The translations under genes and the position numbers were made by a program. Positions 8,269 to 63,214 of a DNA stretch of 64,000 bases are shown in pieces. Location of the stretch: the NCBI GenBank assembly GCA_028688325.1, contig JAQTYI010000002.1:161284-225283 (forward strand). Reading direction: 5' to 3'. The notes under the pieces are model-generated. The model did no database searches and was not told the DNA's origin. It was given only the letters and a program-made list of their open reading frames with translations. This DNA comes from Candidatus Portnoybacteria bacterium. Its GTDB lineage: Bacteria > Patescibacteriota > Minisyncoccia > Portnoybacterales > GWB1-42-6. Positions within the stretch are counted from its first letter, which is position 1. Each line of letters starts with the position of its first letter.

Positions 8269-8344
8269 TTTAATTCCCGAACCTCAATTTCAAATTTCCA
8301 ATAAAATCCCAAATCTCAATTATCAATTATCAATTATCAAAAAA
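8265..8344. repeat. AT-rich word-repeat intergenic element (caattatcaat words)
   Basis: ccaataaaatcccaaatctcaattatcaattatcaattatcaa; shares words with 10958-11118, 13189-13297 and 20380-20573. Confidence 0.55.
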
Positions 8345-8716
8345 TTATTTCGACTTATTGATAATCGAGGAAAAGATAAAAACAAGCTCTTGGCGTTCTT
8401 TCCATAGGGTCCGGCAATCTTGCTGATTTAATGGACAAGCTTTAGCTATCATTCTTAACCAATGCATTGTTTCTTTGGCCTCTTTCCGAGAAATCGCAAG
8501 CTTATGTTTGAAATCTTTTTTAGATTCGCCGGCATCCGCTTCCGTATAGTTTGCGCCGATACTCGTCCCCGATCTGACTATTTGGCCGATCAAAGGCCTC
8601 GTTACTTCGTCTTTTTTTATTAATCGGGCAAATTCAATAATATTTTCACCCAATAAAGCGGTTCTTTCCAAAAGGTCATATTTTTTGTTATTGGAAATTG
8701 GGATTTTATTTGACAT
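8345..8716 (-). CDS. Four-helix-bundle protein (23S rRNA intervening-sequence protein family)
   Basis: 123 aa; family motifs SGTSIGANYTEADAGESKKDFKHKLAISRKEAKETMHWLRM. Confidence 0.8.
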   Translation of the reverse strand: MSNKIPISNNKKYDLLERTALLGENIIEFARLIKKDEVTRPLIGQIVRSGTSIGANYTEADAGESKKDFKHKLAISRKEAKETMHWLRMIAKACPLNQQDCRTLWKERQELVFIFSSIINKSK

Positions 8717-8738
8717 TAAGATTTAGTCATTGGTCATT

Positions 8739-11057: not shown

Positions 11058-11118
11058 ATTATTAAAGATTTGGGGTTGGGATTTTATTGGAAATTTGTCA
11101 TTGGGATTTGCTTGAAAA
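10958..11118. repeat. AT-rich palindromic intergenic element (aaatcccaa / ttgggattt words)
   Basis: aaaatcccaatgcccaaaaccaaaacccaaataaaatc ... gatttggggttgggattttattggaaatttgtcattgggattt: inverted arms. Confidence 0.55.
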
Positions 11119-13188
11119 TTATTTTATCTGTTCCCAATACCGCCTAACTTCCTCACCCATTTTACCATCAATCTTTTGCGCTTGTGAAATGATTTCCTGC
11201 GCTTTGGCCTGTTGCCCCGATAAAGAATAGCCGGCCGCCAAGACCAGATAGGCGTCTTTTTTATTCGGCCTCAGCTCTTTAGCTCGGTTGCCCAAGTCAA
11301 TGGCCATGCTCATCCGGCCACGGTCTTGGGTCGAAAAATAAAGATCCAACCAGGCCAGCGCAAGATAATTCCCGGCTTGGTCGGGCGAGCGCTCAATCCC
11401 TTTTGCCAGCGCCGCGGCGGCGATATTATAAAAGTCCTCATTTTGCGCCAAAGCCGGGTTTTGATTGATTTTATCAATATAGTCCAAAGAGGCCTGATAT
11501 GCAATCTCGGCGGAACCGAATGCGCCCAGATCAAGCGCATCTTTCAGCAGAGGCGCCTCAAGGGCGGCATTTTCCGCGGGCAATGACAATATCTGGTTGG
11601 CCCGGTAGGCGGCCAGGAGAGGTTTGAAATTAAAAGAGTAAACGGCCGTTAGCAAATAGCCGACAACCAATAGCAAAATAATTTTTTTAAAAACACTCCA
11701 CTCGCCGCCGCGAGAAATCTCCCGCCGGCAAGGAAATATCACGCAGTCGGACTGCGTGATATTGACGATAAATGCCAGAACGAAAAACAGCATTAGATAA
11801 GAAACAAAGGAATCAAAAATAAAAAAATTCTGGACCAGATACGCGGCCAGGAGAGACAAAAAAATGACAGAAAATAAAAACGCCTTTTTTTTATTTTCTG
11901 TCATCCCGGACTCGATCCGGGATCCAGGAGCATGGATTCCGGCTTTCGCCGGAATGACAACCCTAATTAATTCATAGCTTACTATAATAAAAATACCCAA
12001 ATACGCCAACAATCCCAGCCAACCCGTTGCCACGCCGTAATCAAAAATAAAATTGTGTGCGCGGTCAGTTGCGTAGGCCTCAAATTCCGCCAGGCGCGGC
12101 GATAGATATCGGCCCGTGGCCGCCTCGAAATTTTCCGGACCAAAACCCAAAATCGGCTTGGTTTGCCAGGCCCGCCAAGCGCCTTGCCAAAGAAGCAAGC
12201 GGCTTTGGGTCGTGGCATCGCTCAGGGAAAAATGGGTTAAGCGATACAGAGTTGAATTATTTTTTACCAGGTCGTTGCCGCGGAAAAGAAACAAAGAAAT
12301 AATCAAAACAAAAATAATGGCCAAAAACACCCAGCTTGTTTTTTTTGTCATCCCGAATTTATTTTGGGATTTCCTGTCACTGGATCCTGAAACAAGTTTA
12401 GGACGACAAACTTCTTGATTAAATAAAAAAATAATTATCCCCGCCGCCAGCCCCAGCCACGCGCCGCGCGTGCCGGACAATAATAAGCTTATGGTTAATA
12501 GCAAAGAACTAATAGCAAAAAACCATTTTCGCCACCCGGCCGACGCAAAAAATAAATAACCGGCTAAAAAAAGATTAAGCAAGGCATAGCCGGCAAAAAA
12601 GCCCGCGTTGCCGATAAGACCAAAGACCCGGCCATTTGCCGGCAAAAGAATACCCCAGCCCCCCAGGCGCTGAATAAGGGCTGTGAGGGCGATAAATACG
12701 GCCACTGCCACTGAAATTCCCGCTAATTTAACCCAATCTTGCTGCCCCTTAAAAACGGCGGATAACATTAAAAACCAAGCAACAAAATGCGCTAAACCCC
12801 AAACTCCGCCTCCCCGCTCCAAACTACCCCAAAAACTATTGTAAAAATCTAAGCCAAAAATGGCAGAGAGAAGGTTGATGGCGAAAAAAACCAATACCGC
12901 GCCCGCAACGCTGGTAAACCAACTTGTGTAGCGGGCAGGCCTGGATTCCGGCTCTCCGCTCACGCTTCGGCCGAAATGACAAAATGTTTTGGGATATTTT
13001 AGCGCCAGATAAAGATAGAGCGCCGCGGCGATCTCCACCAAAATCCTGAACGCGAAAACTTTTGGCGCGGTATAAGGAAAAATAAAAGAAGCGCTGGCAA
13101 AAAGCGGCGCGGCCAGGCAAGCAGCCAGTAAAATTTTTATCAACCCGAAAATTTTATTATCTGTCTTAGAAAAATCTGAAATTTTCAA
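11119..13188 (-). CDS. O-antigen ligase family (Wzy_C/PglL-like) membrane protein with C-terminal TPR domain; paralog of 8739-11057 carrying three in-frame palindromic-element insertions
   Basis: 689 aa; SGTRGAWLGLAAG, GFGPENF, DRAHNFIFDYGVATGWLG motifs; TPR-like tail. Three extra peptide segments relative to the paralog coincide with palindromic-element copies at 11899-11960, 12346-12392 and 12938-12983. Confidence 0.75.
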   Translation of the reverse strand: MKISDFSKTDNKIFGLIKILLAACLAAPLFASASFIFPYTAPKVFAFRILVEIAAALYLYLALKYPKTFCHFGRSVSGEPESRPARYTSWFTSVAGAVLVFFAINLLSAIFGLDFYNSFWGSLERGGGVWGLAHFVAWFLMLSAVFKGQQDWVKLAGISVAVAVFIALTALIQRLGGWGILLPANGRVFGLIGNAGFFAGYALLNLFLAGYLFFASAGWRKWFFAISSLLLTISLLLSGTRGAWLGLAAGIIIFLFNQEVCRPKLVSGSSDRKSQNKFGMTKKTSWVFLAIIFVLIISLFLFRGNDLVKNNSTLYRLTHFSLSDATTQSRLLLWQGAWRAWQTKPILGFGPENFEAATGRYLSPRLAEFEAYATDRAHNFIFDYGVATGWLGLLAYLGIFIIVSYELIRVVIPAKAGIHAPGSRIESGMTENKKKAFLFSVIFLSLLAAYLVQNFFIFDSFVSYLMLFFVLAFIVNITQSDCVIFPCRREISRGGEWSVFKKIILLLVVGYLLTAVYSFNFKPLLAAYRANQILSLPAENAALEAPLLKDALDLGAFGSAEIAYQASLDYIDKINQNPALAQNEDFYNIAAAALAKGIERSPDQAGNYLALAWLDLYFSTQDRGRMSMAIDLGNRAKELRPNKKDAYLVLAAGYSLSGQQAKAQEIISQAQKIDGKMGEEVRRYWEQIK
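11899..11960. mobile_element. Miniature palindromic element (TGTCATCCCGG...CCGGAATGACAA family) inserted in-frame in a CDS
   Basis: tgtcatcccggactcgatccgggatccaggagcatggattccggctttcgccggaatgacaa; translated in the host ORF as VIPAKAGIHAPGSRIESGMTE; absent from the paralog. Confidence 0.7.
12346..12392. mobile_element. Degenerate copy of the TGTCATCCCG element, in-frame in the CDS
   Basis: ttgtcatcccgaatttattttgggatttcctgtcactggatcctga; host translation ...SGSSDRKSQNKFGMTKKT... Confidence 0.5.
12938..12983. mobile_element. Partial copy (right half) of the palindromic element, in-frame in the CDS
   Basis: ctggattccggctctccgctcacgcttcggccgaaatgacaaaa; host translation CHFGRSVSGEPESRP. Confidence 0.5.
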
Positions 13189-13297
13189 TTTTCAATGATC
13201 AATTATCAATGAATTTTCAATGATTAAATTTTCAATTGATAATTTGAAAATTGGTGATTGATTGAAAATTGTAAATTGATAATTGAAAATTACTTTA
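13189..13297. repeat. AT-rich ~110-bp imperfect palindrome built of ttttcaat / caattatcaat words, centred on caattg
   Basis: aattttcaatgatcaattatcaatgaattttcaatgattaaattttcaattgataatttgaaaattggtgattgattgaaaattgtaaattgataattgaaaatt; left and right arms are reverse complements with a few mismatches. Confidence 0.7.
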
Positions 13298-13990
13298 TTA
13301 CTGCTTCGCTTCCAACTCCGCCAAGTCCGCTTTGGCGGCCGCGTTATCGGGCAATAGACGCACCAACTCCTTGTACCACTGGATAGCTTTATTCGTTTGG
13401 TTCGTATCCCGGAAATAACCGGCCAGCGGACCGATCAGATTGGCATTATCGGGAAATTTTTGCAAGGCCTCCAGCATCGTGGTTTCATACATCGCTTCTT
13501 GCCCGGGCAAACGATAGCGGTAGATATCCGCCATCATTAAATAAAAATTAATATCGTTCGGTTCATTGGCAATAGCTATCTTTATCATTTCCAGCCCTTT
13601 TTGCGGCTGGTTCAAAAAATTAGCGTAGAGATCCGCCAAATTGACGAACGGCGGCGAACTTTTAGGCCGAAGCTGCGCCGCATATTGCCAAACATCCCGC
13701 GCGCCTTCATAATCGCCCACACCTTTTTTCAATATCCCCAAAAAAAGCCAACCGGTAAAATCCTCCTGATCGGCCCGCAAGCGGACCAAAGCTTTATTAA
13801 AATTTTCCTGATAGATTCGCGCTTCTCCAGCGGAGAGATTTTTATCTTTTATTTCAAAAATTAATAATTTTTCCGGAGTCAAAACAGCTTCTTTTTTAAA
13901 AATATATCCTTGTTGATAGGCGAAAAAAACGCCGGCAGATAAAACTAATGCGGTCATGACGCCACAAATAATATAATATTTTTTAGACAT
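13298..13990 (-). CDS. Membrane-anchored TPR-repeat protein
   Basis: ORF-track frame 13298-14125; the first 45 codons overlap a palindromic-element copy, so the likely start is the internal Met (MSKKYYIICGVMTALVLSAGVFFAY...) at 13990. One N-terminal TM helix, then TPR-like repeats. Confidence 0.55.
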   Translation of the reverse strand: MSKKYYIICGVMTALVLSAGVFFAYQQGYIFKKEAVLTPEKLLIFEIKDKNLSAGEARIYQENFNKALVRLRADQEDFTGWLFLGILKKGVGDYEGARDVWQYAAQLRPKSSPPFVNLADLYANFLNQPQKGLEMIKIAIANEPNDINFYLMMADIYRYRLPGQEAMYETTMLEALQKFPDNANLIGPLAGYFRDTNQTNKAIQWYKELVRLLPDNAAAKADLAELEAKQ

Positions 13991-14009
13991 AATAAAAATT
14001 ATGCCATAC

Positions 14010-14072
14010 CGGATTAAATCCGGCATCCAGGCCCTAAATTCTGGATCCCGCGGCAAGCCCGGGATGACAAAA
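14010..14072. mobile_element. Palindromic element copy (TGTCATCCCGGGCTTGCC... family), reverse orientation
   Basis: gccggattaaatccggcatccaggccctaaattctggatcccgcggcaagcccgggatgacaaaaa. Confidence 0.6.
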
Positions 14073-19640: not shown

Positions 19641-19848
19641 TACTAAATAAGACGAAAAAACAGCAAAAGTATTACAGCTATCTTAGAATTCCCGTGTTTA
19701 TACCATAAAATCAACCCGACCGAGATGTAAAATGCAAATTTCTAATTGTTCTAATTTCTAATTGACCTAATTAATGGCCAATGTCTAATGTTTAAATTTT
19801 AGAAATTGGGATTTGATTAGAAATTAGGTTAATTAGGTAATTAGAAAT
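19641..19848. repeat. AT-rich palindromic word-repeat element (copy 2 of the ttctaatt/aattagaa family)
   Basis: aaatttctaattgttctaatttctaattgacctaattaatggccaatgtctaatgtttaaattttagaaattgggatttgattagaaattaggttaattaggtaattagaaattt; about 85% identical to 1900-2009. Confidence 0.7.
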
Positions 19849-20379: not shown

Positions 20380-20573
20380 GTTTCCAAAATTTGCTGCAAA
20401 TTAGCTTAAATAAAGTTTTCAATTTTCAATGCTCAATTTTTCACCCTTCGGGTGACCACCCGTAGGGTGGCAATCAATTATCAAATTTTCATTGAACATT
20501 GGTAATTGAAAATTCATTGATAATTGGAAATTGATAATTTTTAATCTATATAGTTATGCAAAAATAGTGGTTG
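20380..20573. repeat. AT-rich word-repeat element containing two short GC hairpins
   Basis: ttttcaattttcaatgctcaatttttcacccttcgggtgaccacccgtagggtggcaatcaattatcaaattttcattgaacattggtaattgaaaattcattgataattggaaattgataattt; hairpins cacccttcgggtg and ccacccgtagggtgg; may also act as the GalU terminator. Confidence 0.6.
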
Positions 20574-29466: not shown

Positions 29467-29477
29467 ATTCCCTTTAT

Positions 29478-29546
29478 AAAAATCACCCCGCAAAATGCCC
29501 GCTTCGCTTTCGCGAAGGCGAGGCGAGCGGGGTGATTTTTATAAAG
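29478..29546. terminator. Long bidirectional hairpin between convergent genes
   Basis: tttataaaaatcaccccgc ... gcggggtgatttttataaa: 19-bp perfect stem flanking a GC-rich loop (gcttcgctttcgcgaaggcgagg); A/T runs on both sides. Confidence 0.65.
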
Positions 29547-33311: not shown

Positions 33312-34171
33312 AATCCTTGTTTTTCGACCAATATCGCCGCGCCGAGCGCCCCGCCGAATTGACCGAGTTCACTCAATAAAATTTGCGTTTTTTTGGCAGC
33401 CGGCGAAACAACGAATTTGTCAACGCCTTCTTCAATGCCCGGCCAAAGCATTCCGGCGGTCGCGCTTATTCCCCCATTTATGATTATGGCTTCGGGATCA
33501 AAAATATTGATGATATTGGCGATGCCTACCCCCAAATTTTTGCCCAGATGAGTAAAAGCCGCCTCCGCTTTTTTGTCGCCGCCGCGCCGCCTTTGTTCCG
33601 CTTCGGCCGAACCGACGCCCAAAATATTTTTAATGAATTTATTGGCGCCCAATTCCTCCCAGCCGGTATATTTTTCCATATCCATTATCATATGCCCCGC
33701 TTCGCCGGCCGCGCCGTGTGAACCGGCCACAATCTGCCCGTTTATCATAAAAGCTCCGCCGATACCCGAACCCAGCGTCAGATAAAAAACATTCTTCATA
33801 TTTTTAGCCAAACCGGCTTCTTTCTCCGCCAGTAAAAAACAATGCGCATCGTGCTCGATTTTTAGCCGATGACCGCGGAACCTTCCTTCCAGCAATTCCT
33901 TGACGGGCTGGCCGTTCAAATATTTGATATTGGGGCTGTTCAGCATTATTTTACGCTCCAAGTCCATAGCCCCGGCCAAACCAAAACCCACGCCGCCGAT
34001 TTCCTCGTGGCCGAGTCCGGCAATGAGCTCTGTATGCATTTTTATCAGCGCCAGCAATAAATTTTCCAGATCGCCCGGCAAGTCGCGAACGCCGCTTTTT
34101 ATTATCTGGCGATCCCTGGCCAGCACGGCTTTGATGCTGGACGCACCGATGTCGAAACCGATGTAATACAT
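33308..34171 (-). CDS. ROK-family sugar kinase (glucokinase-like)
   Basis: 287 aa; MYYIGFDIGASSIKAV (ATPase N-motif), GSGIGGAFMINGQIVAG..GEAGHM typical of ROK kinases. Confidence 0.8.
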   Translation of the reverse strand: MYYIGFDIGASSIKAVLARDRQIIKSGVRDLPGDLENLLLALIKMHTELIAGLGHEEIGGVGFGLAGAMDLERKIMLNSPNIKYLNGQPVKELLEGRFRGHRLKIEHDAHCFLLAEKEAGLAKNMKNVFYLTLGSGIGGAFMINGQIVAGSHGAAGEAGHMIMDMEKYTGWEELGANKFIKNILGVGSAEAEQRRRGGDKKAEAAFTHLGKNLGVGIANIINIFDPEAIIINGGISATAGMLWPGIEEGVDKFVVSPAAKKTQILLSELGQFGGALGAAILVEKQGL

Positions 34172-34300
34172 AAAAATGTCTAAATCCTAATGTCTAATGA
34201 CAAATGGAAATCTTAATGCCAAACGCAAAATTTAGAGGCATTGGTCATTTCATTAAACATTAGTCATTGGAGCTTTGGCATTAATAATAAAATTATTCGA
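34172..34300. repeat. AT-rich palindromic word-repeat element (aatgtctaatg / cattagtcatt words)
   Basis: atgtctaaatcctaatgtctaatgacaaatggaaatcttaatgccaaa ... tttagaggcattggtcatttcattaaacattagtcattggagctttggcattaa; arms inverted; shares the ccaatgtctaat word with the elements at 1900 and 19737. Confidence 0.6.
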
Positions 34301-36302: not shown

Positions 36303-37495
36303 ATGATCAATTTATTTTCTTTACATATTTTAGCATATTCCAGGGCGCTGGGCCGAACCTTGCGTTCCAGATTTTTATAATCTATCTCCACCAACCCAAA
36401 CCGCGGCCAAAAACCCTTGTCCCACTCGAAATTATCCAGCAGCGACCAATAAAAATATCCGCGCACATCCGCGCCGCCGTCCATCGCTTTTTTCATTGCT
36501 TTAATGTATTCTTTGATGAAATTACCCCGCCTGTCATCTTTGGCGTCGGCGATGCCATTTTCCAGAACATAAAGAGGTTTTTCGTAACGGCCGGCATCTT
36601 TTAAAACTTCACTAAATCCTTTCGCATCTATAGGCCAGCCCATATCCGAATATTCCTTGGCCTCCCCATCTGATTTATAGTAATTGATGCCGATAAAATC
36701 CTGGTGTTGCCTGATGGAATTTAAAAAGAAAAAATTGTAGACATAATTTTTGATACCCGCGCCAAAACCGGTAAAATGCATCATATTTTGCGCCACGCCG
36801 ATTTGCGCGGCCGGATGCATTTTTTTCATGGATCCGTAAACGGCGATATGCGCTCGCGACAAGTGATGGTTGGCGCACAAATATTTGATCAACGATTTTT
36901 TTCCCGGCGGCCAGATGCCTTTAAAATAACTATGGCCCGCGTAAACATTGGTTTCATTCAAGGTTATCCAAAACTTCACTTCGCCGCCCAGCGTTTCAGC
37001 CATTTTATCTGCGTAGCGCGCAAAATATCCGATGGTTTTTTTATTTTTCCAACCGCCAATATCGCGAATCCATAGCGGCAAGGTCCAATGCCACAGCGTC
37101 ACAAACGGCTCCATTCCCTTCTCGCGCAAGGATTTTATAACTTCTCGATAATGCTCAATTTCTTTTTCATCAAATTTCCCCTCTTCCGGCTCGATGCGGC
37201 TCCATTCAATGGAAAAACGGTGGGCGTTATGGCCCAGCGATTTGGCAATATCAAAATCTTCGTTGAAACGATTGTAATGATCGCAGGCCCCGCCCGAAAT
37301 ATAATTTTCTTCCTGCAAGGGATTGGGATAGCTTTTCAAAATAAAATCCGGCCAGGCCTTTTGACTGGCGTTTCGCGCGAGGCGCTCTGCGTTTTTCTTT
37401 TCCCACTCGCTCCAATCATTGATATTGCCGCCCTCAACCTGATGGGAGCTCGTCGCCGCACCCCATAAAAATCTTTTGGGAAATTTCAGTTCCAT
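36299..37495 (-). CDS. Glycoside hydrolase family 1 (beta-glucosidase/beta-galactosidase)
   Basis: 398 aa; GH1 acid/base TLNETN and nucleophile VLENGIA (I/TENG) motifs, plus FLWGAATSSHQVEG N-terminal signature. Confidence 0.85.
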   Translation of the reverse strand: MELKFPKRFLWGAATSSHQVEGGNINDWSEWEKKNAERLARNASQKAWPDFILKSYPNPLQEENYISGGACDHYNRFNEDFDIAKSLGHNAHRFSIEWSRIEPEEGKFDEKEIEHYREVIKSLREKGMEPFVTLWHWTLPLWIRDIGGWKNKKTIGYFARYADKMAETLGGEVKFWITLNETNVYAGHSYFKGIWPPGKKSLIKYLCANHHLSRAHIAVYGSMKKMHPAAQIGVAQNMMHFTGFGAGIKNYVYNFFFLNSIRQHQDFIGINYYKSDGEAKEYSDMGWPIDAKGFSEVLKDAGRYEKPLYVLENGIADAKDDRRGNFIKEYIKAMKKAMDGGADVRGYFYWSLLDNFEWDKGFWPRFGLVEIDYKNLERKVRPSALEYAKICKENKLII

Positions 37496-38989: not shown

Positions 38990-39027
38990 TTGTCATCCCG
39001 GGCTTGACCCGGGATCCAGGCCCTCCC
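38990..39027. mobile_element. Palindromic element copy (left half)
   Basis: ttgtcatcccgggcttgacccgggatccaggccctcc. Confidence 0.6.
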
Positions 39028-42176: not shown

Positions 42177-43088
42177 TTACGCCTTCAAATATCTGCGAAT
42201 CGCGATTAAGCTGGAAACGCCGCCCAAAACGATGCCGATGCCGAAAAGCAACAAAATAAATTGCCAAAAATTGGTTTGGTAGAAAAACAGCAGGTCCACT
42301 TCGGGCAAGAAGTTGGTAATCTTGGGCGAAATAAAATAAAGGATGGGGAAAATAACGATAATCGTCGTCATGGCCGAAGCAATGCCATACAGCACCCCCT
42401 CAACCACGAACGGCCCGCGAATAAACCAGTTGTCCGCGCCTACAAAGCGCATCACGGAAATCTCTTCGCGCCAAGTGTACATCGTCAAGCGCACGGTGTT
42501 GAAAGTAACCAACAGCGCCAGCAGCCCCAAAAACAACGAAATGACAAACCCGCCCATCTGAATGTTTCCGGTCAGGCGCGTTAAGCGGCCGATTATGTCT
42601 TTATTTTGTTTATAATTTATCTTATCGATTATTCCTTGGAATCTGTCCTGCGACAAATAATCGGAAATCGCTTCATATTGAGAGGCCTGATTGGCTTTGA
42701 TGTTCAAGCTCGCCTCCAGTGGATTTTGATCCAGCTCCTGCAAGCTCCGCAGTAAAACCTGGTTATTTTTATGCAGTTCCTGGAACCTTTTCAACGCTTC
42801 GCCTTGCGAAACATAGTCCACGCTTTTGACCTCCGGCAAAGCGACCAGTTCCTGGCGCACCGACAAAACTTTCGCCTCTTCCGTATCTTTGTTGAAATAT
42901 ACGCTCACATCCACCCGGTTTTGCAAATTCGCCACCACCGCCTGCGTCATAACATTAAAAAGCGTGAGTCCGGCGATAACAAAAAGCGCCAGAATCATCA
43001 CGGCCACCGTGGCGGCGCTCAGCCAGTAGTTTCTAACGAAACTCTGCCAGCCGGATTTAACGATGCGGAACAGGGTTGTTTTGAACAT
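42177..43088 (-). CDS. ftsX: Cell-division ABC transporter permease FtsX
   Basis: 303 aa; N-terminal TM, large extracellular loop, three C-terminal TMs; immediately downstream of ftsE. Confidence 0.85.
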   Translation of the reverse strand: MFKTTLFRIVKSGWQSFVRNYWLSAATVAVMILALFVIAGLTLFNVMTQAVVANLQNRVDVSVYFNKDTEEAKVLSVRQELVALPEVKSVDYVSQGEALKRFQELHKNNQVLLRSLQELDQNPLEASLNIKANQASQYEAISDYLSQDRFQGIIDKINYKQNKDIIGRLTRLTGNIQMGGFVISLFLGLLALLVTFNTVRLTMYTWREEISVMRFVGADNWFIRGPFVVEGVLYGIASAMTTIIVIFPILYFISPKITNFLPEVDLLFFYQTNFWQFILLLFGIGIVLGGVSSLIAIRRYLKA

Positions 43089-43107
43089 AAAAATTAACTT
43101 TTGATTT

Positions 43108-43258
43108 CTCCGCCCATACGAAAAATTTTGTTATAAATTCGCGATGAGCCAAGCGTCTAAAATTGCCAGTGGGACGAGGGAGCGGAGCGAACCGAGTTGT
43201 CCGCGGCAATTTTAGCGAGGCGAATCCGAATTTATCAAAATTTTATCGTCGGGCGGCG
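43108..43258 (-). repeat. ~151-bp element, copy 1 (100% identical to 44050-44200), just upstream of ftsX; contains promoter-like hexamers and a 9-bp-stem hairpin
   Basis: tctccgcccatacgaaaaattttgttataaattcgcgatgagccaagcgtctaaaattgccagtgggacgagggagcggagcgaaccgagttgtccgcggcaattttagcgaggcgaatccgaatttatcaaaattttatcgtcgggcgg. In minus orientation it reads TTGATA-N18-TAAAAT then the aaaattgcc...ggcaatttt hairpin, ending ~20 nt before the ftsX ATG. Confidence 0.75.
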
Positions 43259-43270
43259 GTTTTTTCCGCC

Positions 43271-43298
43271 GCTTTTTTGCCGCCAAAAAAGCGGCAAA
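43271..43298. terminator. Perfect 12-bp-arm hairpin between ftsE and ftsX
   Basis: gccgcttttttg ccgc caaaaaagcggc. Confidence 0.5.
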
Positions 43299-43303
43299 TT
43301 TGA

Positions 43304-43335
43304 TTCTGGATCCCGGGTCAAGCCCGGGATGACAA
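43304..43335. mobile_element. Palindromic element copy (right half)
   Basis: tctggatcccgggtcaagcccgggatgacaattgg. Confidence 0.6.
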
Positions 43336-43349
43336 TTGGTGTTATTATT

Positions 43350-44027
43350 TTATAATATATACCGTCCATTCGCTTCATCCCTTATCACCCTTCCTTTATC
43401 CAAGGTTATCACGCGCCGGCCCAGGTTATTTATTATTTCGCGGTCGTGCGTGGCCAGAATTATCGTCGTGCCAAGCTCATTTATCTTTTGCAGCAAACGA
43501 ACGATATCCCAGGAATTGAGCAAATCCAGATTTCCCGTGGGCTCATCGGCTAAAATAACGGACGGACGATGAATGAGCGCGCGAGCAATGGCCACGCGTT
43601 GTTTTTCGCCGCCGGAAAGCTGATGCGGAAATTGATTTAATTTATCCACCAATCCCACCAGCTCCAAAAGCTGGGGCACATCCTGTTTTATCTCCTTGTC
43701 CGTGGCGCCAGCCACTTCCATGGCGAAAGCTACATTCTCATAAGCCGTCCTGTCCGAAAGCAAACGAAAATCCTGAAACACCATGCCGATCTTGCGGCGC
43801 AATTTCGGCATATCTTTTTCCTTCACCAAGTGGATATTCTGTTTATCTAAAAAAAGTTTGCCTTTGCTCGGCTTTTCTTCGCCGATAAGCAATTTAAGCA
43901 AGGTTGATTTACCCGCGCCAGACGGCCCGGCCAAAGAAACGAATTCTTTGGCTTTAATCGTCAAATCGATGTTATTTAACGCAGTGCAGCCGTCGTAAAT
44001 TTTGGAGATTTTTTGGAAAACTATCAT
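43350..44027 (-). CDS. ftsE: Cell-division ATP-binding protein FtsE
   Basis: 225 aa; Walker A GPSGAGKST, signature LSGGEKQRVAIARAL, Walker B ILADEPTGNLD. Confidence 0.9.
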   Translation of the reverse strand: MIVFQKISKIYDGCTALNNIDLTIKAKEFVSLAGPSGAGKSTLLKLLIGEEKPSKGKLFLDKQNIHLVKEKDMPKLRRKIGMVFQDFRLLSDRTAYENVAFAMEVAGATDKEIKQDVPQLLELVGLVDKLNQFPHQLSGGEKQRVAIARALIHRPSVILADEPTGNLDLLNSWDIVRLLQKINELGTTIILATHDREIINNLGRRVITLDKGRVIRDEANGRYIL

Positions 44028-44049
44028 GTATATCTAATTATACCTCATT

Positions 44050-44200
44050 TTCTCCGCCCATACGAAAAATTTTGTTATAAATTCGCGATGAGCCAAGCGT
44101 CTAAAATTGCCAGTGGGACGAGGGAGCGGAGCGAACCGAGTTGTCCGCGGCAATTTTAGCGAGGCGAATCCGAATTTATCAAAATTTTATCGTCGGGCGG
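44050..44200 (-). repeat. ~151-bp element, copy 2 (identical to 43108-43258), just upstream of ftsE
   Basis: Identical over the full length; ends ~22 nt before the ftsE ATG. Confidence 0.75.
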
Positions 44201-44245: not shown

Positions 44246-45353
44246 TTATTTTAATCTAATCTCTGAATCTATAAATTCATCTAATTTCCCATCCAGCACT
44301 TCATCCGGCTCCTTTGATTCTACGCCCGTGCGCAGGTCTTTGACAAGTTTATAGGGATGCAAAACATAATTTCGTATCTGGCCGCCCCACTCCGCCGTGC
44401 CTTCCCCGCTTTGAATGCCCGAACGCAAGCCCGCAATTTCCTTCTCTTTCTTTTGGATTTCCAGCAGATACAGCTTACTCACCAGAATTTTCATCGCCTG
44501 CTCTTTGTTGGCGCTTTGCGAGCGCTCGCTTTGGGCCGCCACGGCAATGCCGGTGGGAATATGCGTTATGCGCACCGCGGTTTCCACCTTGTTCACATTC
44601 TGCCCACCCGGGCCCGAAGAGCGAAAAGTGTCTATTCGCAACTCTTCCGGTTTTATCTGCACATCGGCCGCGCCTTCCATTTCCGGCATCACCTCAACCA
44701 GCGCGAAAGAGGTATGGCGCAAATTGTTAGCGTTGAACGGCGATAAGCGCACCAGCCGGTGCACACCGCTCTCGTTTTTTAAAAATCCGTAGGCATACGG
44801 GGCGCGAAATTCCAGTGTGGCATTTTTTATGCCCGCTTCTTGGCCTTCGTGGATATGCAAAGTTTTGACATTGAACCCGGCGCGTTCGCCGTATCGCTGA
44901 TACATCCTTAGCAGCATCTGCGCCCAGTCCTGCGCTTCTGTTCCGCCCGCGCCACTATAAATAGACAATATCGCGTTGTTTCTGGCGTACGGAAAAGCGA
45001 AAAAAGTTTTTTTCTCTTCCTGCGCGACAATTTTTTCCAGATCCCCAAATTCTTTGGCCAGTTTTTTGGTTTTTGTTTCGTCTTCTTCGCCCTGATATTC
45101 CGCCACTTCCATTGCCAGCAATTGTGCGGCAGTTTCGATTTCTTCCCACTTGGCGTGATTTTCTTTAAGCTCCGCCAATTCCTGGCTTAACTTACCCGCC
45201 CGCTCGTGATCCTGCCAAAAATTGACATCTTCCATCTGCTTTTCTATTCCCGCAATCTTGTGTTTTTGCGCGACCAAGTCAAAGGCAGTCCTTGATCTTT
45301 TGGATCCGGTCGGTTAATGCCTCCAATTGTTTTTTGAAATTGATGGTTTCCAT
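44246..45353 (-). CDS. prfB: Peptide chain release factor 2, with programmed +1 ribosomal frameshift site
   Basis: Main frame 343 aa with the RF2-specific SPF motif and GGQ (SGPGGQNVNK). Upstream ORF0 METINFKKQLEALTDRIQKIKDCL ends in CTT TGA C (stop at 45279-45281), preceded by an AAGGA SD-like element; +1 shift joins it to ...DLVAQKHKIAGIEKQ... Confidence 0.85.
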
Positions 45354-46018: not shown

Positions 46019-46060
46019 TTATAAATACTACAGTATACTAGTATACTGTAGTATTTATAA
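46019..46060. promoter_or_regulatory. 42-bp perfect AT-rich palindrome upstream of tRNA-Gly / downstream of ftsB
   Basis: ttataaatactacagtatactagtatactgtagtatttataa (centre actagt). Confidence 0.5.
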
Positions 46061-46486: not shown

Positions 46487-46695
46487 TTTGCTAAAATGAA
46501 TATATGGATTTCACGCGCCGCTCAAAAGGAGCCAAACTTTTCTTAATTATTGCCACGGCTATCGTGGTCTTCAGCATGCTCGCCTTCACCCTGGCGCCGC
46601 TGTTTTAAATAATAACAGAGCTGAACGATTTTTCAAATCCGCCATTGGGCGGTTTTTTTATTTCTCGCGCATACGAAAAATAACAATTAAATTTA

Positions 46696-46793
46696 TTGTC
46701 ATCCCGAACGCAGTGAGGGATCTCTCGCGTATGCGAGATTGTTGCGCGGGTCGCTTCGCTCCCGCGAGATCCCTCGTTTCACTCAGGATGACA
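46696..46793. mobile_element. Second palindromic element family (TTGTCATCC(C/T)GAACG.AGTGAGGGATC...GATCCCTCGTTTCACTCAGGATGACA), full copy
   Basis: ttgtcatcccgaacgcagtgagggatctctcgcgtatgcgagattgttgcgcgggtcgcttcgctcccgcgagatccctcgtttcactcaggatgacatt; perfect long terminal inverted repeats. Confidence 0.7.
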
Positions 46794-59309: not shown

Positions 59310-59475
59310 GACTCTATTTATAATTATAATAATAGACCCGCCCCATACCTGAATTATACACAAAACCGGCAAAAATCAAAGCCCGCCGGCATCGCGCCAA
59401 ACGGGCCTTGGTAGCAGATAAATAAAACACAAACATCCTTACATACTTGAGAATGTAAGGATGTTTGTGTTTTAT

Positions 59476-62400
59476 TTATTCCACTGTCACATTTTCTTGC
59501 GTTACTGTCGCGCCGTCTTTAATGTCCAAAATTGGCCCATTATAATATAAATAGCTAGTCGTGTCGCGGCTGTATCCGCCATACTTGAATTTAATAAATT
59601 TCAAAGTTGCCTGGCTGCCGCCGGCAAATATAATATTTCTCCATTCGCCCCTTGCAAGATTCGGCTCGCTGACCAGACCGTCGTTGTTGGTGTCACCGCC
59701 TGAAGAATCATCCTTAAAAGATGTAAAAATAATTAAGGTGGAAGACGACTGGCCGTCAGCTACCAAATTTCCGTCAATTTTCAAGGATGGATAAAGCGGG
59801 CAGGCCGCCTTAATCACTGCACCCGGCTCAATGGTCAAAGTGGAACTGGCGGTTACTGTTGGATATTGTGTCCCGATATCAGACCGCAGAATGTAGACAA
59901 TTTCTCGCTGCCAAGTCGTATTTTTTGATAAAACCGTGCGCTCGCTGACATTAACGCCGTTGAAAGAGTTGTTAATCAAATTGTTGCCGGAAAAAACCGG
60001 ATAGGCGCTTTCCAGCCAAACAGCGAATTGAAAACCGGAAATATCATTTGACTCGATCGCCGGCCGGTTTTGATTTTCAATCCTTATCGCCGTGCCGGTA
60101 TTTGCCGAGTTTCTGAAGGTATTGTTTTTAACGATTGGTGCAGACGAGCCAGTAAGATATAAAGCGGTGTCGTTATCCAAAAATTGGGAATCGGACAAAG
60201 TCAAATCGGAGCCGGTTAGCTCCAGGCCGCGGCCTTGAATATTGCGGAAAATGCAGTTATTAATATCTACTTTGGCGCCGTTAACCGCAACCGCCGGAAA
60301 ATTATTGTTGAACGGCGATCGGTACCCGCCGTATTCAAAAGTTACAAAAGACAGCTCGGAATTCAAGGAATCAGGTGCAAAATACAATCCCGTTCCCCAG
60401 TCGCCCGCTTGCGGCGCGACGCTGTTTGAGGTGAATAAAATCGGATTACCGCTCGTGCCTACGGCTTTTACGGCCCCCTTAACATATAAGGAATAAAGGG
60501 TCGCGCTTAATGGCTTTATTGTCGCGCCGGGCTCAATGGTTAAAGTGGCGCCCGCCGACACCATGGGAGATGCCTCATTGGAAGAATATAAAACATAAGG
60601 AGAACCCGCCTTGCCCCAAACGGTATTTTTGGAAATAATCGTATTGTCTCTTACCATGCTGCCGGCGGAAACATTTAGAGCATCGTTTTGGGCATTCGGA
60701 GTGCCGCCGGCAGCCGAAGTGCCCCAGGCCAAAATAAAATCGGAATAAACGCTATTATAATTTATCCTTTCCAAGGAATTGCCATTATCATTGGTGCTCC
60801 TCCAGCTATTTGAATAATTAACTCTGTCAACTATGCTGCCGGCGGCGTTTTTTAGAATTAAATCGTTGCTTAAATTAGTCAAAGATAATGAAGCGGCGCC
60901 ATTTAGAGTTAAGCGAAGATGAGCTTGATCGGACGATGGGATTGCATAATAAGCACCGTCGTAAATTGATGGCGTGGAAGTGCTTTCTGTTCTGTCCGCC
61001 AATAACGCAAAACCGCCAGAAGCAATGACCGTTGAAGAACCGTTATGAATCGTATCGGCGATGACAACATGTTCGCGGCCGTCGGAAACAAATTTCCAGT
61101 TAGCCAAATCTATCGCTATCGGGGAACGATTGTACAGCTCGACATATTCGTAATAGCTGTCCGACCCGGGATTGGGGTCATACATTATCTCGTTAAAAAT
61201 TATCGGTTTTATCGAAACCGGCGCCTGAATTTCTTGCCAAACGCTCGCTTGGCCGGCTGAGTCAACCGCCCGGGCGCGGAAATAATAAACGATATTGTCG
61301 AGATTTGACTGAAAAGATTTTGAAGTGGTGATTGTGGCCATGGCCCAGCTCTGCCAGGCACCCTGTTCGCCTATTTTATATTGCACATCATAATAGCCGA
61401 TATCCGTTGATGAACTGCTCCAGTTTACAGTAAAATCTATATTCATCAGATCATAGCCGGAAAGATCAATGGTTGCTTCCGGCGCAAAATCAATTCTCCA
61501 AGAATATTCGGTTGAAGTGGCGTTGCGGTTGCCGGCCGCGTCCGCGGCTCCAACCTTAAAAGCATGGCTGCCTTCGGCCAAATTGATATATTCTTGCGGC
61601 GAGGAACAATCGGTTGAGCTCGCGTTATCCAACTGGCAGGAAAAAGTTGAATCGCTTTCCGAGGAATTGAATTCAAAAATCGCCGTTGTTGTAGATGCTA
61701 TGCTTTCCGGCTTAACCGTAATCATTGTTTCCGGCGCCGTAGTATCCGGCGTTGAAGTTGCGGTTGAAGTGGCTGTCGGCGACGAAGATAGTGTTGACGA
61801 AAAATTGGACCCGCCGCCGGAAACAGCAACGGAAGGACTCGGATCCGGCATTTGCGCCCGGCTTGGAACCATTTCTTCGATGATCGCAGACGGAATTTCG
61901 CTGTCCTGAGGCGTTGTTTCTTCAATTATCCCCCCTTCTGCTTTTTCCTGCGCCGCAACAGCGCTTGGCGGCAATTGCGCCGCAGCTTTTTCTTCGGCCA
62001 CAATCGTGTTTAACGGCAAAGACGCGGCCGGCGGCAACGATTCCGGCAATACCGGCAATACTGAATTTTTCGGCGCCTCGCCATCCCCGCCAACAGGCGG
62101 GGCCGCGCTCGGCGCCGCATCCACTATAACCCCAGCATACAGCGGCCCGACCTTTGTCAATGACTGATTGGCTTTGTCTTTTAATTTTTGCCACCAGCTT
62201 TTATTATCATATTCCCGCTTGGTCTTTTCCGCTTCATCAAAAAATAATTTCACCGCCCCCGCGCCATAAGATACGGCTTTGGGAGCAAGAAGAGAAAAAT
62301 AGTCGGAGTGGACAGATATTGTATTTGATAAATCCATTAAGTAATGGGTATCACCAAATTTAGATTTTTTATATATTACTAAACAAATTCTATTATCTCC

Positions 62401-63129
62401 AATCTCCTTCTCTATGCATTCATAATTTACACCGTCTTTTATCTTTTCGACTTTTTTTAAACCCAATAAGTAATTTTCCCTAATTGTGTCTCTACTCAAA
62501 AAATTATTACTTGAATAACTCGCCAAATCATCAAAAGCCATATTAATATCACTAATCACTACAGGTACCACATTAAAATTTATGGACGAGCTAATTTTGT
62601 CAACCGCCCATTTTTCATAAGGATCTCCCTCCGGATGCGCGTCCAATCGCGTATGTGCCGGCACAGTTGCATCTTCCAATAAATGTACCACATGTCCAAG
62701 CGCGAAAAATGCTTCTTGGTTATTGCCTTTTACATAGCTATCAATCGCCTTCTGCCAGGTCTGGTTTCCCCCGCTGAGTATAAAAGACGATAACGCTTGG
62801 TAATTAGGGCTTTTCGCCCAATTCTTGGAGTTCATCATACTGCCAAGGCCCATATCGCTTTCCGGATTATAAAAATGATTCAGCCAGCGCGGCGCTAAAT
62901 CTTCTTTTATGCTCCCTTGTTTTAACCATTCTATTTCTTCATTGCTCAATTTGCGGTCAAAATTGGCATTATAAATTTTAGCTACATTATCCGTTAAAGA
63001 CGGGTGCGTAATATCATCATTATACGAAAAAGCTCGGTTGCAAAACGCAACCGAGCCGGCAAATATTGTCGTTAAAATTAATAGAGCTAAAACTTCCTTT
63101 TTATTCGAGACCATCACCCTTGATGTCAT
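59476..63129 (-). CDS. Giant secreted multidomain protein: N-terminal zinc-dependent phospholipase C-like domain, Pro-rich linker, FN3/Ig-like region, lamin-tail domain (LTD) and C-terminal right-handed beta-helix repeats
   Basis: 1217 aa; signal peptide; HVVHLLEDATVPAHTR (PLC-like Zn-site); IIFNEIMYDPNPGSDSYYEYVELYN (LTD signature); repeated NNxF/N-rich parallel beta-helix turns (NNTFRNSANTGTAIRIENQ, SGNNLINNSFNGVNV). Confidence 0.7.
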   Translation of the reverse strand: MTSRVMVSNKKEVLALLILTTIFAGSVAFCNRAFSYNDDITHPSLTDNVAKIYNANFDRKLSNEEIEWLKQGSIKEDLAPRWLNHFYNPESDMGLGSMMNSKNWAKSPNYQALSSFILSGGNQTWQKAIDSYVKGNNQEAFFALGHVVHLLEDATVPAHTRLDAHPEGDPYEKWAVDKISSSINFNVVPVVISDINMAFDDLASYSSNNFLSRDTIRENYLLGLKKVEKIKDGVNYECIEKEIGDNRICLVIYKKSKFGDTHYLMDLSNTISVHSDYFSLLAPKAVSYGAGAVKLFFDEAEKTKREYDNKSWWQKLKDKANQSLTKVGPLYAGVIVDAAPSAAPPVGGDGEAPKNSVLPVLPESLPPAASLPLNTIVAEEKAAAQLPPSAVAAQEKAEGGIIEETTPQDSEIPSAIIEEMVPSRAQMPDPSPSVAVSGGGSNFSSTLSSSPTATSTATSTPDTTAPETMITVKPESIASTTTAIFEFNSSESDSTFSCQLDNASSTDCSSPQEYINLAEGSHAFKVGAADAAGNRNATSTEYSWRIDFAPEATIDLSGYDLMNIDFTVNWSSSSTDIGYYDVQYKIGEQGAWQSWAMATITTSKSFQSNLDNIVYYFRARAVDSAGQASVWQEIQAPVSIKPIIFNEIMYDPNPGSDSYYEYVELYNRSPIAIDLANWKFVSDGREHVVIADTIHNGSSTVIASGGFALLADRTESTSTPSIYDGAYYAIPSSDQAHLRLTLNGAASLSLTNLSNDLILKNAAGSIVDRVNYSNSWRSTNDNGNSLERINYNSVYSDFILAWGTSAAGGTPNAQNDALNVSAGSMVRDNTIISKNTVWGKAGSPYVLYSSNEASPMVSAGATLTIEPGATIKPLSATLYSLYVKGAVKAVGTSGNPILFTSNSVAPQAGDWGTGLYFAPDSLNSELSFVTFEYGGYRSPFNNNFPAVAVNGAKVDINNCIFRNIQGRGLELTGSDLTLSDSQFLDNDTALYLTGSSAPIVKNNTFRNSANTGTAIRIENQNRPAIESNDISGFQFAVWLESAYPVFSGNNLINNSFNGVNVSERTVLSKNTTWQREIVYILRSDIGTQYPTVTASSTLTIEPGAVIKAACPLYPSLKIDGNLVADGQSSSTLIIFTSFKDDSSGGDTNNDGLVSEPNLARGEWRNIIFAGGSQATLKFIKFKYGGYSRDTTSYLYYNGPILDIKDGATVTQENVTVE

Positions 63130-63214
63130 CCCGGGCTTGACCCGGGATCCATGCTCTGGATTCCCGCTTTCGCTCGCCTCGCTGGAGCTTCGGCGAAGCG
63201 GGCGGGAATGACAA
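63124..63214. mobile_element. Palindromic element, longest copy (first family)
   Basis: tgtcatcccgggcttgacccgggatccatgctctggattcccgctttcgctcgcctcgctggagcttcggcgaagcgggcgggaatgacaaa. Confidence 0.7.

What the first reader, a model, noticed from the sequence alone, without database searches (positions are those of the whole stretch)
43108..44200. Two 100% identical ~151-bp elements placed ~20 nt upstream of the ftsE and ftsX start codons
Seen in sequence: 43108-43258 and 44050-44200 are identical base-for-base. In the direction of transcription each provides TTGATA-N18-TAAAAT promoter-like hexamers followed by a stem-loop with 9-bp arms (aaaattgcc...ggcaatttt) enclosing a GC-rich 37-nt loop, and each ends just before the gene's RBS. 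A third partial occurrence of its 5' end (cgcatacgaaaaat) is at 46665-46690. Perfect identity suggests very recent duplication or gene conversion. Inference: a portable promoter plus structured-leader cassette that co-regulates the two cell-division genes, or a fresh MITE insertion pair.
Basis: seen in the sequence. Interest (0 to 1): 0.55.

Follow-up and report, generated by a model that had tools for sequence, protein, structure and literature searches.

The report
Duplicated long-hairpin intergenic element at ftsE/ftsX
Two identical 152-base sequences sit in front of the cell-division genes ftsE and ftsX of a tiny uncultured bacterium (Candidatus Portnoybacteria); each is one long hairpin-forming intergenic repeat of a familiar bacterial kind, one copy inherited and the other recently duplicated, so the finding is real but fairly ordinary.

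Summary
The repeat is real: window 43105-43256 equals 44049-44200 (152 nt, 100%). Genes are on the minus strand in the order prfB, copy 2, ftsE, copy 1, ftsX.

The whole unit is one imperfect palindrome (147 nt, 56 pairs, z about -6 to -8 on either strand). No Rfam family matches.

The source is a Candidatus Portnoybacteria (CPR) genome. A strain about 99.6% identical has only the ftsE-upstream copy. A sister species has only the ftsE-ftsX copy; it is 88% identical although four-fold sites are 61% identical, and it shows two compensatory stem changes. More distant relatives have 11-14-nt spacers or unrelated palindromic elements at the same two sites.

A conserved 20-mer gave no hit in 185,579 species genomes and one known contig in JGI metagenomes. 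This is a low-copy, locus-bound element, not a dispersed MITE, and it has no target-site duplication.

Perfect identity is what a within-species duplication would give (0.6 differences expected).

A transcript started there would lack the hairpin.

Best reading: an ERIC/Correia-like intergenic palindrome, locally duplicated and dispensable, with a possible RNA-hairpin or promoter side effect.

The parts
43105..43256 (-). Copy 1 of the 152-nt unit, between ftsE and ftsX. The hairpin proper is 43110-43256 (CCGCCCGACGA...TCGTATGGGCGG), followed by a 5-nt tail AGAAA (43105-43109).
   Evidence: Exact repeat. Whole-length hairpin of -64 to -69 kcal/mol, z -5.7 to -8. An orthologous copy in L005 is 88% identical.
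44049..44200 (-). Copy 2 of the 152-nt unit, between prfB and ftsE. This is the younger, within-species duplicate.
   Evidence: Identical to copy 1. Present with 2 loop substitutions in strain L001/L002. Absent from the 40-nt prfB-ftsE spacer of L005.
43209..43238 (-). Promoter-like TTGATA (43238-43233) - 18 nt - TAAAAT (43214-43209) inside copy 1. The same hexamers lie at 44182-44153 in copy 2. The -10 overlaps the 5' arm of the inner stem.
   Evidence: Consensus scan, 10 of 12. The 32-nt block that contains them is unchanged in L005.
43253..43295 (-). 43-nt GC/A-T hairpin 'leader' (GCCGCTTTTTTGGCGGCAAAAAAGCGGCGGAAAAAACCGCCGC) directly upstream of copy 1, overlapping it by 4 nt. It reads as an intrinsic terminator only on the + (antisense) strand.
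   Evidence: 100% identical in L005. Terminator-like sites on the + strand.
43308..43334 (-). Small hairpin of the dispersed TGTCATCCCGGGCTTGACCCGGGATCC family, just after the ftsE stop. It is specific to this genome's allele of the spacer.
   Evidence: Families D4 and D17 have six copies or more in the window. Absent from L001 and L005.
44037..44042 (-). Perfect TATAAT 9 nt upstream of the ftsE ATG, in the unique 21-nt spacer outside the element. Likely the ftsE proximal (leaderless-type) -10 box; the 3' end of the element occupies the -35 region.
   Evidence: In this window, -10-like hexamers cluster 6-13 nt upstream of start codons.
46660..46681 (-). Probable relic of the 3' end of the element (ATTTTTCGTATGCGCGAGAAAT) in the lepA-divIC spacer.
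   Evidence: 24 of 27 aligned to the element's 3' end plus tail. The motif TTTTCGTATGSGCG matches exactly here, and only here besides the two copies; about 0.12 matches with up to 1 mismatch are expected by chance. It carries the GCGCG variant seen in L005.
43350..44027 (-). ftsE, bracketed by the two direct repeats. Its last 25 nt differ at 8 positions from strain L001.
   Evidence: TIGR02673 at 280 bits. Clustered differences.
42177..43088 (-). ftsX
   Evidence: FtsX models at E 4e-62. 100% identical to P0001, named FtsX of Candidatus Portnoybacteria.

Best explanation
The 152-nt unit is a low-copy, lineage-restricted intergenic palindromic element. It is a 147-nt imperfect hairpin plus a 5-nt tail, of the same general kind as ERIC, Correia or MITE-like repeats, in a Candidatus Portnoybacteria (CPR) genome.

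**History.** The copy between ftsE and ftsX is the older one, inherited together with a 43-nt hairpin leader from the ancestor shared with a sister species. The copy between prfB and ftsE is a within-species duplicate of the hairpin unit alone. It is so young that zero differences are expected. Shown: the anatomy, the presence/absence pattern and the conservation.

**Mechanism (inferred).**
- prfB, ftsE and ftsX are co-directional, and no sense-strand intrinsic terminator lies between them. The element is therefore probably transcribed through.
- It would then fold into a dsRNA hairpin of about 56 bp inside the mRNA.
- As reported for Correia elements, such a hairpin can be cut or bound by RNase III, or can stabilise the upstream cistron. 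This would uncouple expression of neighbouring cistrons.
- At the DNA level, its 3' end sits where the -35 of the ftsE proximal TATAAT would be, and it carries one internal sigma-70-like hexamer pair. It may therefore also modulate transcription initiation.
- It is not required for ftsEX expression. The same two spacers in relatives are empty or hold unrelated palindromic elements.
For: **Anatomy.**
- Exact repeat with sharp ends. The 5' boundary falls exactly at the base of the hairpin.
- The whole unit folds on both strands, z -5.7 and -5.1 and -8.
- No Rfam family matches.

**Relatives.**
- The source is Portnoybacteria.
- L001/L002 are colinear with the window at 99.5-99.7% identity. They keep copy 2 but carry a different 134-nt spacer in place of copy 1.
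- L005 (FtsX 91%) has the leader plus the element only between ftsE and ftsX.
- The L005 element is 88% identical and the 43-nt leader 100% identical, while 324 four-fold sites are 61% identical.
- Two compensatory pair changes against two disruptions in the stems.
- L013-L016 have a decayed leader plus 5' end in the prfB-ftsE spacer (nhmmer E 5e-8).
- L008 has 14- and 11-nt spacers.
- Every expanded spacer in relatives is strongly hairpin-forming but unrelated in sequence. Several belong to AT-rich families dispersed through the window.

**Copy number.** A conserved 20-mer finds 0 of 185,579 species genomes, 1 JGI contig (the same contig as L002) and 0 viral contigs.

**Age of copy 2.**
- Strain divergence of 0.3-0.5% predicts about 0.6 differences per 152 nt.
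- Of the two L001 loop changes, the one that can be polarised (C to T) is derived, because L005 shares the window's base; the other lies inside L005's 8-nt loop deletion.

**Independent assembly.** Contig L004 starts exactly 30 nt inside the repeat's 3' end and continues into ftsX.
Against: - No transcription data exist, so the RNA-level role is inference by analogy.
- No target-site duplication or cognate transposase was found, so the copying mechanism is unknown.
- The element is far better conserved than neutral sites, including in its loops and bulges. A purely selfish or neutral element at a fixed locus should not be, so some sequence-specific function or a later exchange between lineages is implied.
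- Only two species-level lineages carry it, so the covariation evidence rests on a single comparison.
- The rest of the 789-kb source genome could not be searched.
Confidence: 0.6

Rival explanations
1. One reading: the element is a portable promoter with a structured 5' leader that co-regulates ftsE and ftsX, and once also divIC.
For: - TTGATA-18-TAAAAT is present in both copies.
- It lies within a 32-nt block that is unchanged in L005.
- The element is over-conserved relative to four-fold sites.
- All occurrences, including the relic, lie upstream of cell-division genes.
Against: - The -10 lies in the stem, so the predicted leaders have no special structure (z about 0).
- Each site is empty or differently filled in close relatives.
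- The genome rarely uses leaders with SD motifs, and ftsE has its own TATAAT at -9.
- The three sites are simply neighbours within 3.6 kb, so local copying explains the association.
Confidence: 0.13
2. An ancient two-copy arrangement kept identical by gene conversion. Both spacers carried the element in the ancestor, different lineages lost one or the other, and in this genome the two copies were recently homogenised.
For: - L013-L016 carry a decayed leader plus 5' end in the prfB-ftsE spacer, so that spacer held the module in another lineage.
- Identity ending exactly at the ends of the element fits a conversion tract limited by homology.
- There is evidence of recombination in this spacer: 8 clustered differences at the ftsE 3' end.
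Against: - Copy 2 lacks the 43-nt leader that accompanies the element in L005, L013 and copy 1.
- The flanks of copy 2 and of the L013 relic are not alignable.
- Recency alone already explains zero differences.
Confidence: 0.15
3. A conventional MITE that was recently mobilised in trans by a transposase and inserted twice.
For: - Small, non-coding, with terminal inverted repeats of more than 20 nt.
- Presence/absence polymorphism.
- 100% identical copies.
Against: - No 2-10-bp target-site duplication at either copy or in L005.
- No further copy in the other 60 kb of the window or in about 300 kb of related loci.
- One hit in JGI metagenomes and none in the GTDB species genomes.
- Copy 1 is orthologous across species.
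Confidence: 0.08
4. An assembly artefact, such as a misjoin or artificial duplication at a repeat.
For: - The window's exact FtsE protein is not on record elsewhere.
- The 5' junction of copy 1 is seen only in this assembly.
Against: - Copy 2 in its context is reproduced in two independent assemblies, L001 (ENA) and L002 (JGI).
- The copy 1 to ftsX junction is reproduced in the Logan contig L004. That contig begins exactly 30 nt (k-1 for k = 31, from my knowledge of Logan) inside the repeat, as expected at a true branching repeat.
- The leader-to-element junction is reproduced in L005.
Confidence: 0.03

Closest known systems
ERIC (enterobacterial repetitive intergenic consensus, IRU) elements
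   Same: - Whole-length imperfect palindrome of about 130-150 nt.
- Sits in spacers between co-directional genes.
- Present or absent among close relatives.
- No target-site duplication known.
- Sequence better conserved than neutral DNA.

The ERIC features come from my own knowledge; ERIC is discussed among small repeats in PMC3184786 and PMC10969869.
   Different: - No sequence relationship was tested or is expected, given the different phylum.
- ERIC has tens to hundreds of dispersed copies per genome. This element has one or two, confined to one gene cluster.
Correia repeat enclosed elements (CREE / nemis) of Neisseria
   Same: - About 100-155 bp with long terminal inverted repeats that fold as a hairpin in mRNA.
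- Can create promoters at their ends with flanking sequence, and are bound or cut by RNase III, so they change expression of adjacent genes (PMC2649163).
- Here, an internal hexamer pair and a 3' end abutting the ftsE TATAAT give the same possibilities.
   Different: - CREE duplicate a TA target and occur in hundreds of copies.
- Here there is no duplication and a very low copy number.
- An IHF site and RNase III cleavage were not tested.
Prokaryotic MITEs in general
   Same: Size, lack of coding capacity, terminal inverted repeats and intergenic location match the definition in PMC11602168.
   Different: - The defining 2-10-bp target-site duplication is absent.
- Dispersal is not seen.
- No cognate transposase was identified.
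Dispersed palindromic families of the same genome (TGTCATCCCGGG... hairpins and AT-rich TTGAAAATTGATAATTG-type palindromes)
   Same: - They occupy the same kind of spacer, including the ftsE-ftsX spacer of relatives.
- They share the short motif TCGCCTCGC with two other palindromes in the window.
   Different: Those families have many diverged copies across the window. The 152-nt element has 48% G+C, is not dispersed, and is far better conserved.

Membership tests
MITE | Small (50-800 bp) non-coding unit | tested here: met
   152 nt. Only short spurious ORFs cross it. A search with the longest ORF peptide found nothing.
MITE | Terminal inverted repeats of at least 10-15 bp | tested here: met
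   The two arms align over about 55 nt with a few gaps. There are 56 predicted pairs.
MITE | Target-site duplication of 2-10 bp flanking each copy | tested here: not met
   The flanks are GAGTTC|...|ATGAGG for copy 2, AACCG|...|TCAAAA for copy 1 and AACCG|...|TTTAGA for L005. No direct repeat is present.
MITE | Multiple dispersed copies in a genome | tested here: not met
   Two copies plus one relic lie within 3.6 kb, and none in the rest of the 64-kb window. A near-identical strain's JGI metagenome yields a single hit. The remaining 725 kb of the source genome could not be searched.
MITE | Cognate autonomous IS or transposase with matching ends | not tested
   No other match to the element's ends in the window or in 34 loci. 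The window's ORFs were not screened for transposases.
Correia/CREE | TA target duplication, about 26-bp conserved TIR, IHF site, Neisseria-specific sequence | tested here: not met
   No TA duplication at either end. Sequence homology and an IHF site were not tested.
REP/REPIN-RAYT | Pairs of 20-40-nt REPs in high copy number, with a RAYT gene in the genome | tested here: not met
   This is a single long hairpin at low copy number. A RAYT gene was not looked for.
Curated structured RNA families (Rfam 15) | Match to a covariance model at its gathering score | tested here: not met
   The window contains only three tRNA matches. In E-value mode across copy 1 the best match is sroD at 23.8 bits, against a gathering score of 50.
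Sigma-70-type promoter | Two hexamers with 16-18-nt spacing; transcription initiation | tested here: inconclusive
   The hexamers match 10 of 12 positions with an 18-nt spacer. However, the 5-kb region has 16 such sites against 6.1 expected. Initiation cannot be tested with these tools.
Intrinsic terminator | G+C-rich hairpin followed directly by a U tract on the transcribed strand | tested here: not met
   On the gene strand the hairpin is followed by AGAAA. Terminator-like sites next to copy 1 are found only on the + (antisense) strand.

The most novel reading that the evidence does not exclude
The 43-nt leader plus the 147-nt hairpin is a functional cis-acting module under purifying selection, dedicated to the cell-division cluster (ftsE and ftsX, with a relic upstream of divIC) of a Portnoybacteria lineage. 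It could be a protein-binding DNA or RNA platform, or a processing site, that sets the FtsE:FtsX ratio. That would make it an undescribed structured regulatory element in CPR bacteria rather than a selfish repeat.
Probability: 0.12. Interest if true: 0.55.

Novelty: new member of a known kind. Interest (0 to 1): 0.3.

Why it matters
- CPR genomes are small and gene-dense, yet here the spacers of an otherwise tightly packed prfB-ftsE-ftsX cluster are repeatedly filled by long hairpin elements that turn over even between strains 99.6% identical.
- This element is unusual among them. It is not dispersed, and it is much better conserved than silent sites. That makes it a modest candidate for a real cis-acting structure in organisms whose gene regulation is almost unstudied.
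- Two perfect 152-bp direct repeats flanking ftsE are a substrate for recombinational deletion or amplification of a cell-division gene.
- Such repeats are also a typical trap for short-read assembly.

Tried and rejected
**Searches for more copies.**
- Rfam at gathering and E-value thresholds gave nothing.
- An exact FtsE look-up found no record. This probably reflects the window-specific C-terminus and the source record not being served.
- A 20-mer scan of the GTDB species genomes gave 0 hits. The same scan of JGI metagenomes returned only the already known contig.
- Two viral scans and a phage blastn gave 0 hits.
- The search for related loci with FtsX gave only 8 loci, none closer than 84% identity and none with the element.
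- I searched the protein database with the longest spurious ORF across the element, hoping to find other contigs where it had been miscalled as a gene.
- Literature searches for CPR/Patescibacteria MITEs or palindromic repeats found nothing relevant.

**Readings considered and rejected.**
- 6S RNA: the architecture is wrong and there is no Rfam hit.
- Integron attC: no core sites.
- DGR TR/VR pair: no reverse transcriptase, the sequence is non-coding, and the copies are identical.
- IS200/IS605-type ends: these do not form a whole-length palindrome.
- tRNA-derived element: ARAGORN finds nothing there.
- Small protein gene: substitutions against L005 show no 3-nt periodicity.

Full report
**1. 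The observation**

The window holds an exact 152-nt direct repeat, 43105-43256 and 44049-44200, spaced 944 nt. Identity stops at once on both sides. This is a slip, not an error of substance. A 58-nt probe with up to three mismatches finds only these two places, with none expected by chance.

The genes lie on the minus strand in this order:
- lepA (48605-46809)
- a DivIC-family gene (46486-46076)
- tRNA-Gly and tRNA-Thr
- prfB (45476/45277-44246, with the classical CTT TGA C frameshift site at 45285-45278)
- copy 2
- ftsE (44027-43350)
- a 261-nt spacer that ends with copy 1
- ftsX (43088-42177)
- tRNA-Gln

This order rests. FtsE, FtsX and RF2 are confirmed by NCBIfam models.

**2. Anatomy**

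That stem is only the apex.
- The unit from CCGCCCGACGA to TCGTATGGGCGG is one imperfect palindrome of 147 nt with 56 predicted pairs, followed by AGAAA.
- It folds at -64 to -69 kcal/mol. The z-scores are -5.7 on the gene strand, -5.1 on the other strand, and -8 for the unit alone.
- The 5' limit of the duplicated segment coincides exactly with the base of the hairpin.
- No Rfam family matches at gathering scores, or convincingly at relaxed E-values.
- TTGATA-N18-TAAAAT is present (10 of 12). However, TAAAAT is part of the 5' arm of the inner stem.
- An RNA starting about 7 nt downstream would lack that arm. The predicted 114-119-nt leaders, folded with the first 30 nt of coding sequence, fold no better than shuffled sequence (z +0.7 and -0.2). 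'Promoter followed by its own stem-loop' is therefore not a coherent design.

**3. Genomic habit of the host**

FtsX is 100% identical to a protein from a Candidatus Portnoybacteria MAG with a 789-kb contig.
- Only 4 of 43 long ORFs in the window have a Shine-Dalgarno motif at working distance.
- -10-like hexamers cluster 6-13 nt upstream of start codons. This suggests many leaderless or very short-leader mRNAs.
- ftsE has a perfect TATAAT at 44042-44037, 9 nt from its ATG. It lies in the unique spacer outside the element, and the element's 3' end occupies the -35 region.

**4. Relatives**

I fetched 34 related loci through FtsX homologues.

*(a) L001 (ENA) and L002 (JGI): the same species.*
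- They are colinear with the window at 99.5-99.7% identity over 11-15 kb.
- They carry copy 2 in the same context, with two substitutions in the apical loop.
- Their ftsE-ftsX spacer is a completely different 134-nt AT-rich palindrome.
- Homology breaks within the last 25 nt of ftsE (8 clustered differences) and resumes 9 nt before the ftsX ATG. In that stretch L001 resembles L005, and the window is the odd one out.

*(b) L005/L006: a sister species (FtsX 91%).*
- There are 40 nt and no element between prfB and ftsE.
- The ftsE-ftsX spacer carries the same 43-nt hairpin leader (43 of 43 identical), followed by the element at 88% identity with an 8-nt loop deletion.

*(c) L013-L016 (FtsX 86%).* They have a decayed leader plus the element's 5' end in the prfB-ftsE spacer (nhmmer E 5e-8).

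*(d) L007-L009 (FtsX 84%).* They have the compact form, with 14- and 11-nt spacers.

*(e) L010/L030, L031-L033 and L034.* They have unrelated long hairpins in one or both spacers.
- Every spacer of 95 nt or more except the 185-nt decayed one of L013 (z -2.0) folds with z between -3.5 and -9.5; short spacers do not.
- Several of these alternatives belong to AT-rich palindromic families with many diverged copies elsewhere in the window.

**5. Distribution**

The 20-mer ATAAATTCGGATTCGCCTCG, from the block conserved between species, gave these results:
- no match in one genome for each of 185,579 species
- one match in 241 million JGI metagenome records, the L002 contig itself
- no match in viral contigs or phage genomes

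That metagenome holds a strain 99.6% identical to the source, so the single hit suggests one copy per genome there, as far as that genome was assembled. L001 and L002 also assembled straight through the element. The family is therefore narrow and low-copy, unlike the truly dispersed families of the same genome.

**6. Age and constraint**

Between the window and L005, 324 four-fold degenerate sites of prfB, ftsE and ftsX are 61% identical. The element is 88% identical and the leader 100% identical. The spacer outside them cannot be aligned.

Six substitutions fall in stems. Four of them form two compensatory pairs (CG to GC at the terminal stem, AU to GC), and two break pairs. The hairpin is thus maintained.

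Sequence is also conserved beyond what structure alone would need. This means either functional constraint or an exchange between the lineages later than their split. With only two lineages I cannot separate the two.

Copy 2 is shared by the window and L001/L002 but not by L005. Strain divergence of 0.3-0.5% predicts about 0.6 differences in 152 nt, so zero differences between the two copies is unremarkable. Of the two L001 loop changes, the one that can be polarised (C to T) is derived, because L005 shares the window's base; the other lies inside L005's loop deletion. Perfect identity therefore needs no special mechanism. Gene conversion between two older copies remains possible because of the L013 relic.

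**7. The third site**

At 46660-46681 (minus strand), ATTTTTCGTATGCGCGAGAAAT aligns 24 of 27 with the element's 3' end plus tail. It carries the GCGCG variant of L005. The degenerate 14-mer occurs nowhere else in the window. It is probably a relic, but the statistics are marginal and the motif was chosen after the fact.

**8. Artefact check**

- Copy 2 in context is reproduced by two independent assemblies.
- The leader-to-element junction is reproduced in L005.
- The element-to-ftsX junction is reproduced in Logan contig L004. That contig starts exactly 30 nt inside the repeat. This is what a k = 31 de Bruijn graph gives at a branching repeat; the k value is from my own knowledge of Logan.
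- An artefact is unlikely.

**9. Mechanism**

*Shown:*
- It is a hairpin unit.
- One copy is inherited and one is recently copied.
- It is dispensable at each site.
- It sits in spacers that are hot spots for palindromic elements.

*Inferred:*
- The three genes are co-directional. No hairpin followed by a U tract exists on the gene strand; the terminator-like sites next to copy 1 are on the antisense strand.
- The element is therefore probably transcribed within a polycistronic RNA and forms a long dsRNA hairpin.
- By analogy with Correia elements (PMC2649163), this could be an RNase III target or a stabiliser that uncouples neighbouring cistrons.
- The element's end and its internal hexamers could also affect promoter strength.
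- How the unit was copied is unknown. There is no target-site duplication.

**10. Comparison and verdict**

It works like, and looks like, ERIC, Correia or MITE-type intergenic palindromes. It fails the MITE definition on target-site duplication and dispersal (definition from PMC11602168). It is best filed as a new, lineage-restricted member of the broad class of bacterial intergenic palindromic repeats. Interest is modest.

The one feature worth following up is its strong conservation relative to silent sites, together with its confinement to the cell-division cluster.

Noticed in passing
window 45278-45285 (minus strand), prfB 45476-44246: prfB is split into two frames at CCTTTGAC, the classical RF2 +1 programmed frameshift site (CUU UGA C). 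An AGGA lies a few bases upstream.
   Followed up: partly
window 11899-11932, 14002-14070, 38991-39024, 43303-43335, 63124-63157, 12341-12373, 46692-46724: A dispersed family of small hairpins, TGTCATCCCGGGCTTGACCCGGGATCC, often paired with a ...GGGAATGACAA partner and a G+C-rich core (GCGAAGCG / TCGCCTCGC). There are at least six copies in the 64-kb window. One was inserted at the ftsE stop and seems to have rewritten the last codons of ftsE.
   Followed up: partly
window 8280-8346, 8667-8739, 11002-11121, 13173-13303, 19730-19837, 20412-20558, 34170-34283, 1900-2007: AT-rich palindromic repeat families (TTGAAAATTGATAATTG and TTGGAAATTGGGATTT types) are scattered through spacers. Members of the same families fill the ftsE-ftsX spacer in relatives L001, L010 and L031.
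   Followed up: partly
whole window (43 long ORFs): Shine-Dalgarno motifs are almost absent (4 of 43). TATAAT-like hexamers are concentrated 6-13 nt upstream of start codons, for example GGTATAAT before the genes starting at 37495, 41235 and 44027. This suggests widespread leaderless transcription in this CPR genome.
   Followed up: partly
window 46019-46060: A perfect 42-nt palindrome (TTATAAATACTACAGTATACT / AGTATACTGTAGTATTTATAA) lies between the divIC-like gene and tRNA-Gly. It is conserved in L001/L002.
   Followed up: no
window about 46516-46620 (+ strand), with a terminator at 46639-46659: A 34-aa hydrophobic ORF sits on the opposite strand in the lepA-divIC spacer. It is called as a gene in L001 (3123-3227) and is followed by a clean intrinsic terminator (CCGCCATTGGGCGGTTTTTTT). 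The relic of the element abuts that terminator.
   Followed up: no
L005 3374-4130; L008 11153-11470; L009 5281-5646; L013 11245-11535; L026 1374-1655: In relatives, the region just downstream of ftsX holds free-standing GIY-YIG nuclease genes and a 23S-rRNA-IVS-type four-helix-bundle gene. These are absent from the window, where tRNA-Gln follows ftsX. The region is a variable hot spot.
   Followed up: no
window 43329-43356 (+ strand): This is the best promoter-like match of the region (ATGACA-16-TATAAT, 11 of 12). It points antisense into the 3' end of ftsE and is created by the end of the TGTCATCC hairpin.
   Followed up: no
window 29472-29546 and 59418-59479: Two other long hairpins: a 20-bp perfect stem with a 35-nt G+C-rich loop containing GCGAGGCGA, and 30-nt arms that are 97% complementary. 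They share the architecture of AT-rich stem and GC-rich core with the 152-nt element.
   Followed up: no
L026-L029, first 140-190 nt: Four independent assemblies of a relative (FtsX 87%) all break 140-190 nt upstream of ftsX. The break falls in a sequence related, in reverse orientation, to the long hairpin in the prfB-ftsE spacer of L031. This points to another repeat that fragments assemblies at this locus.
   Followed up: no
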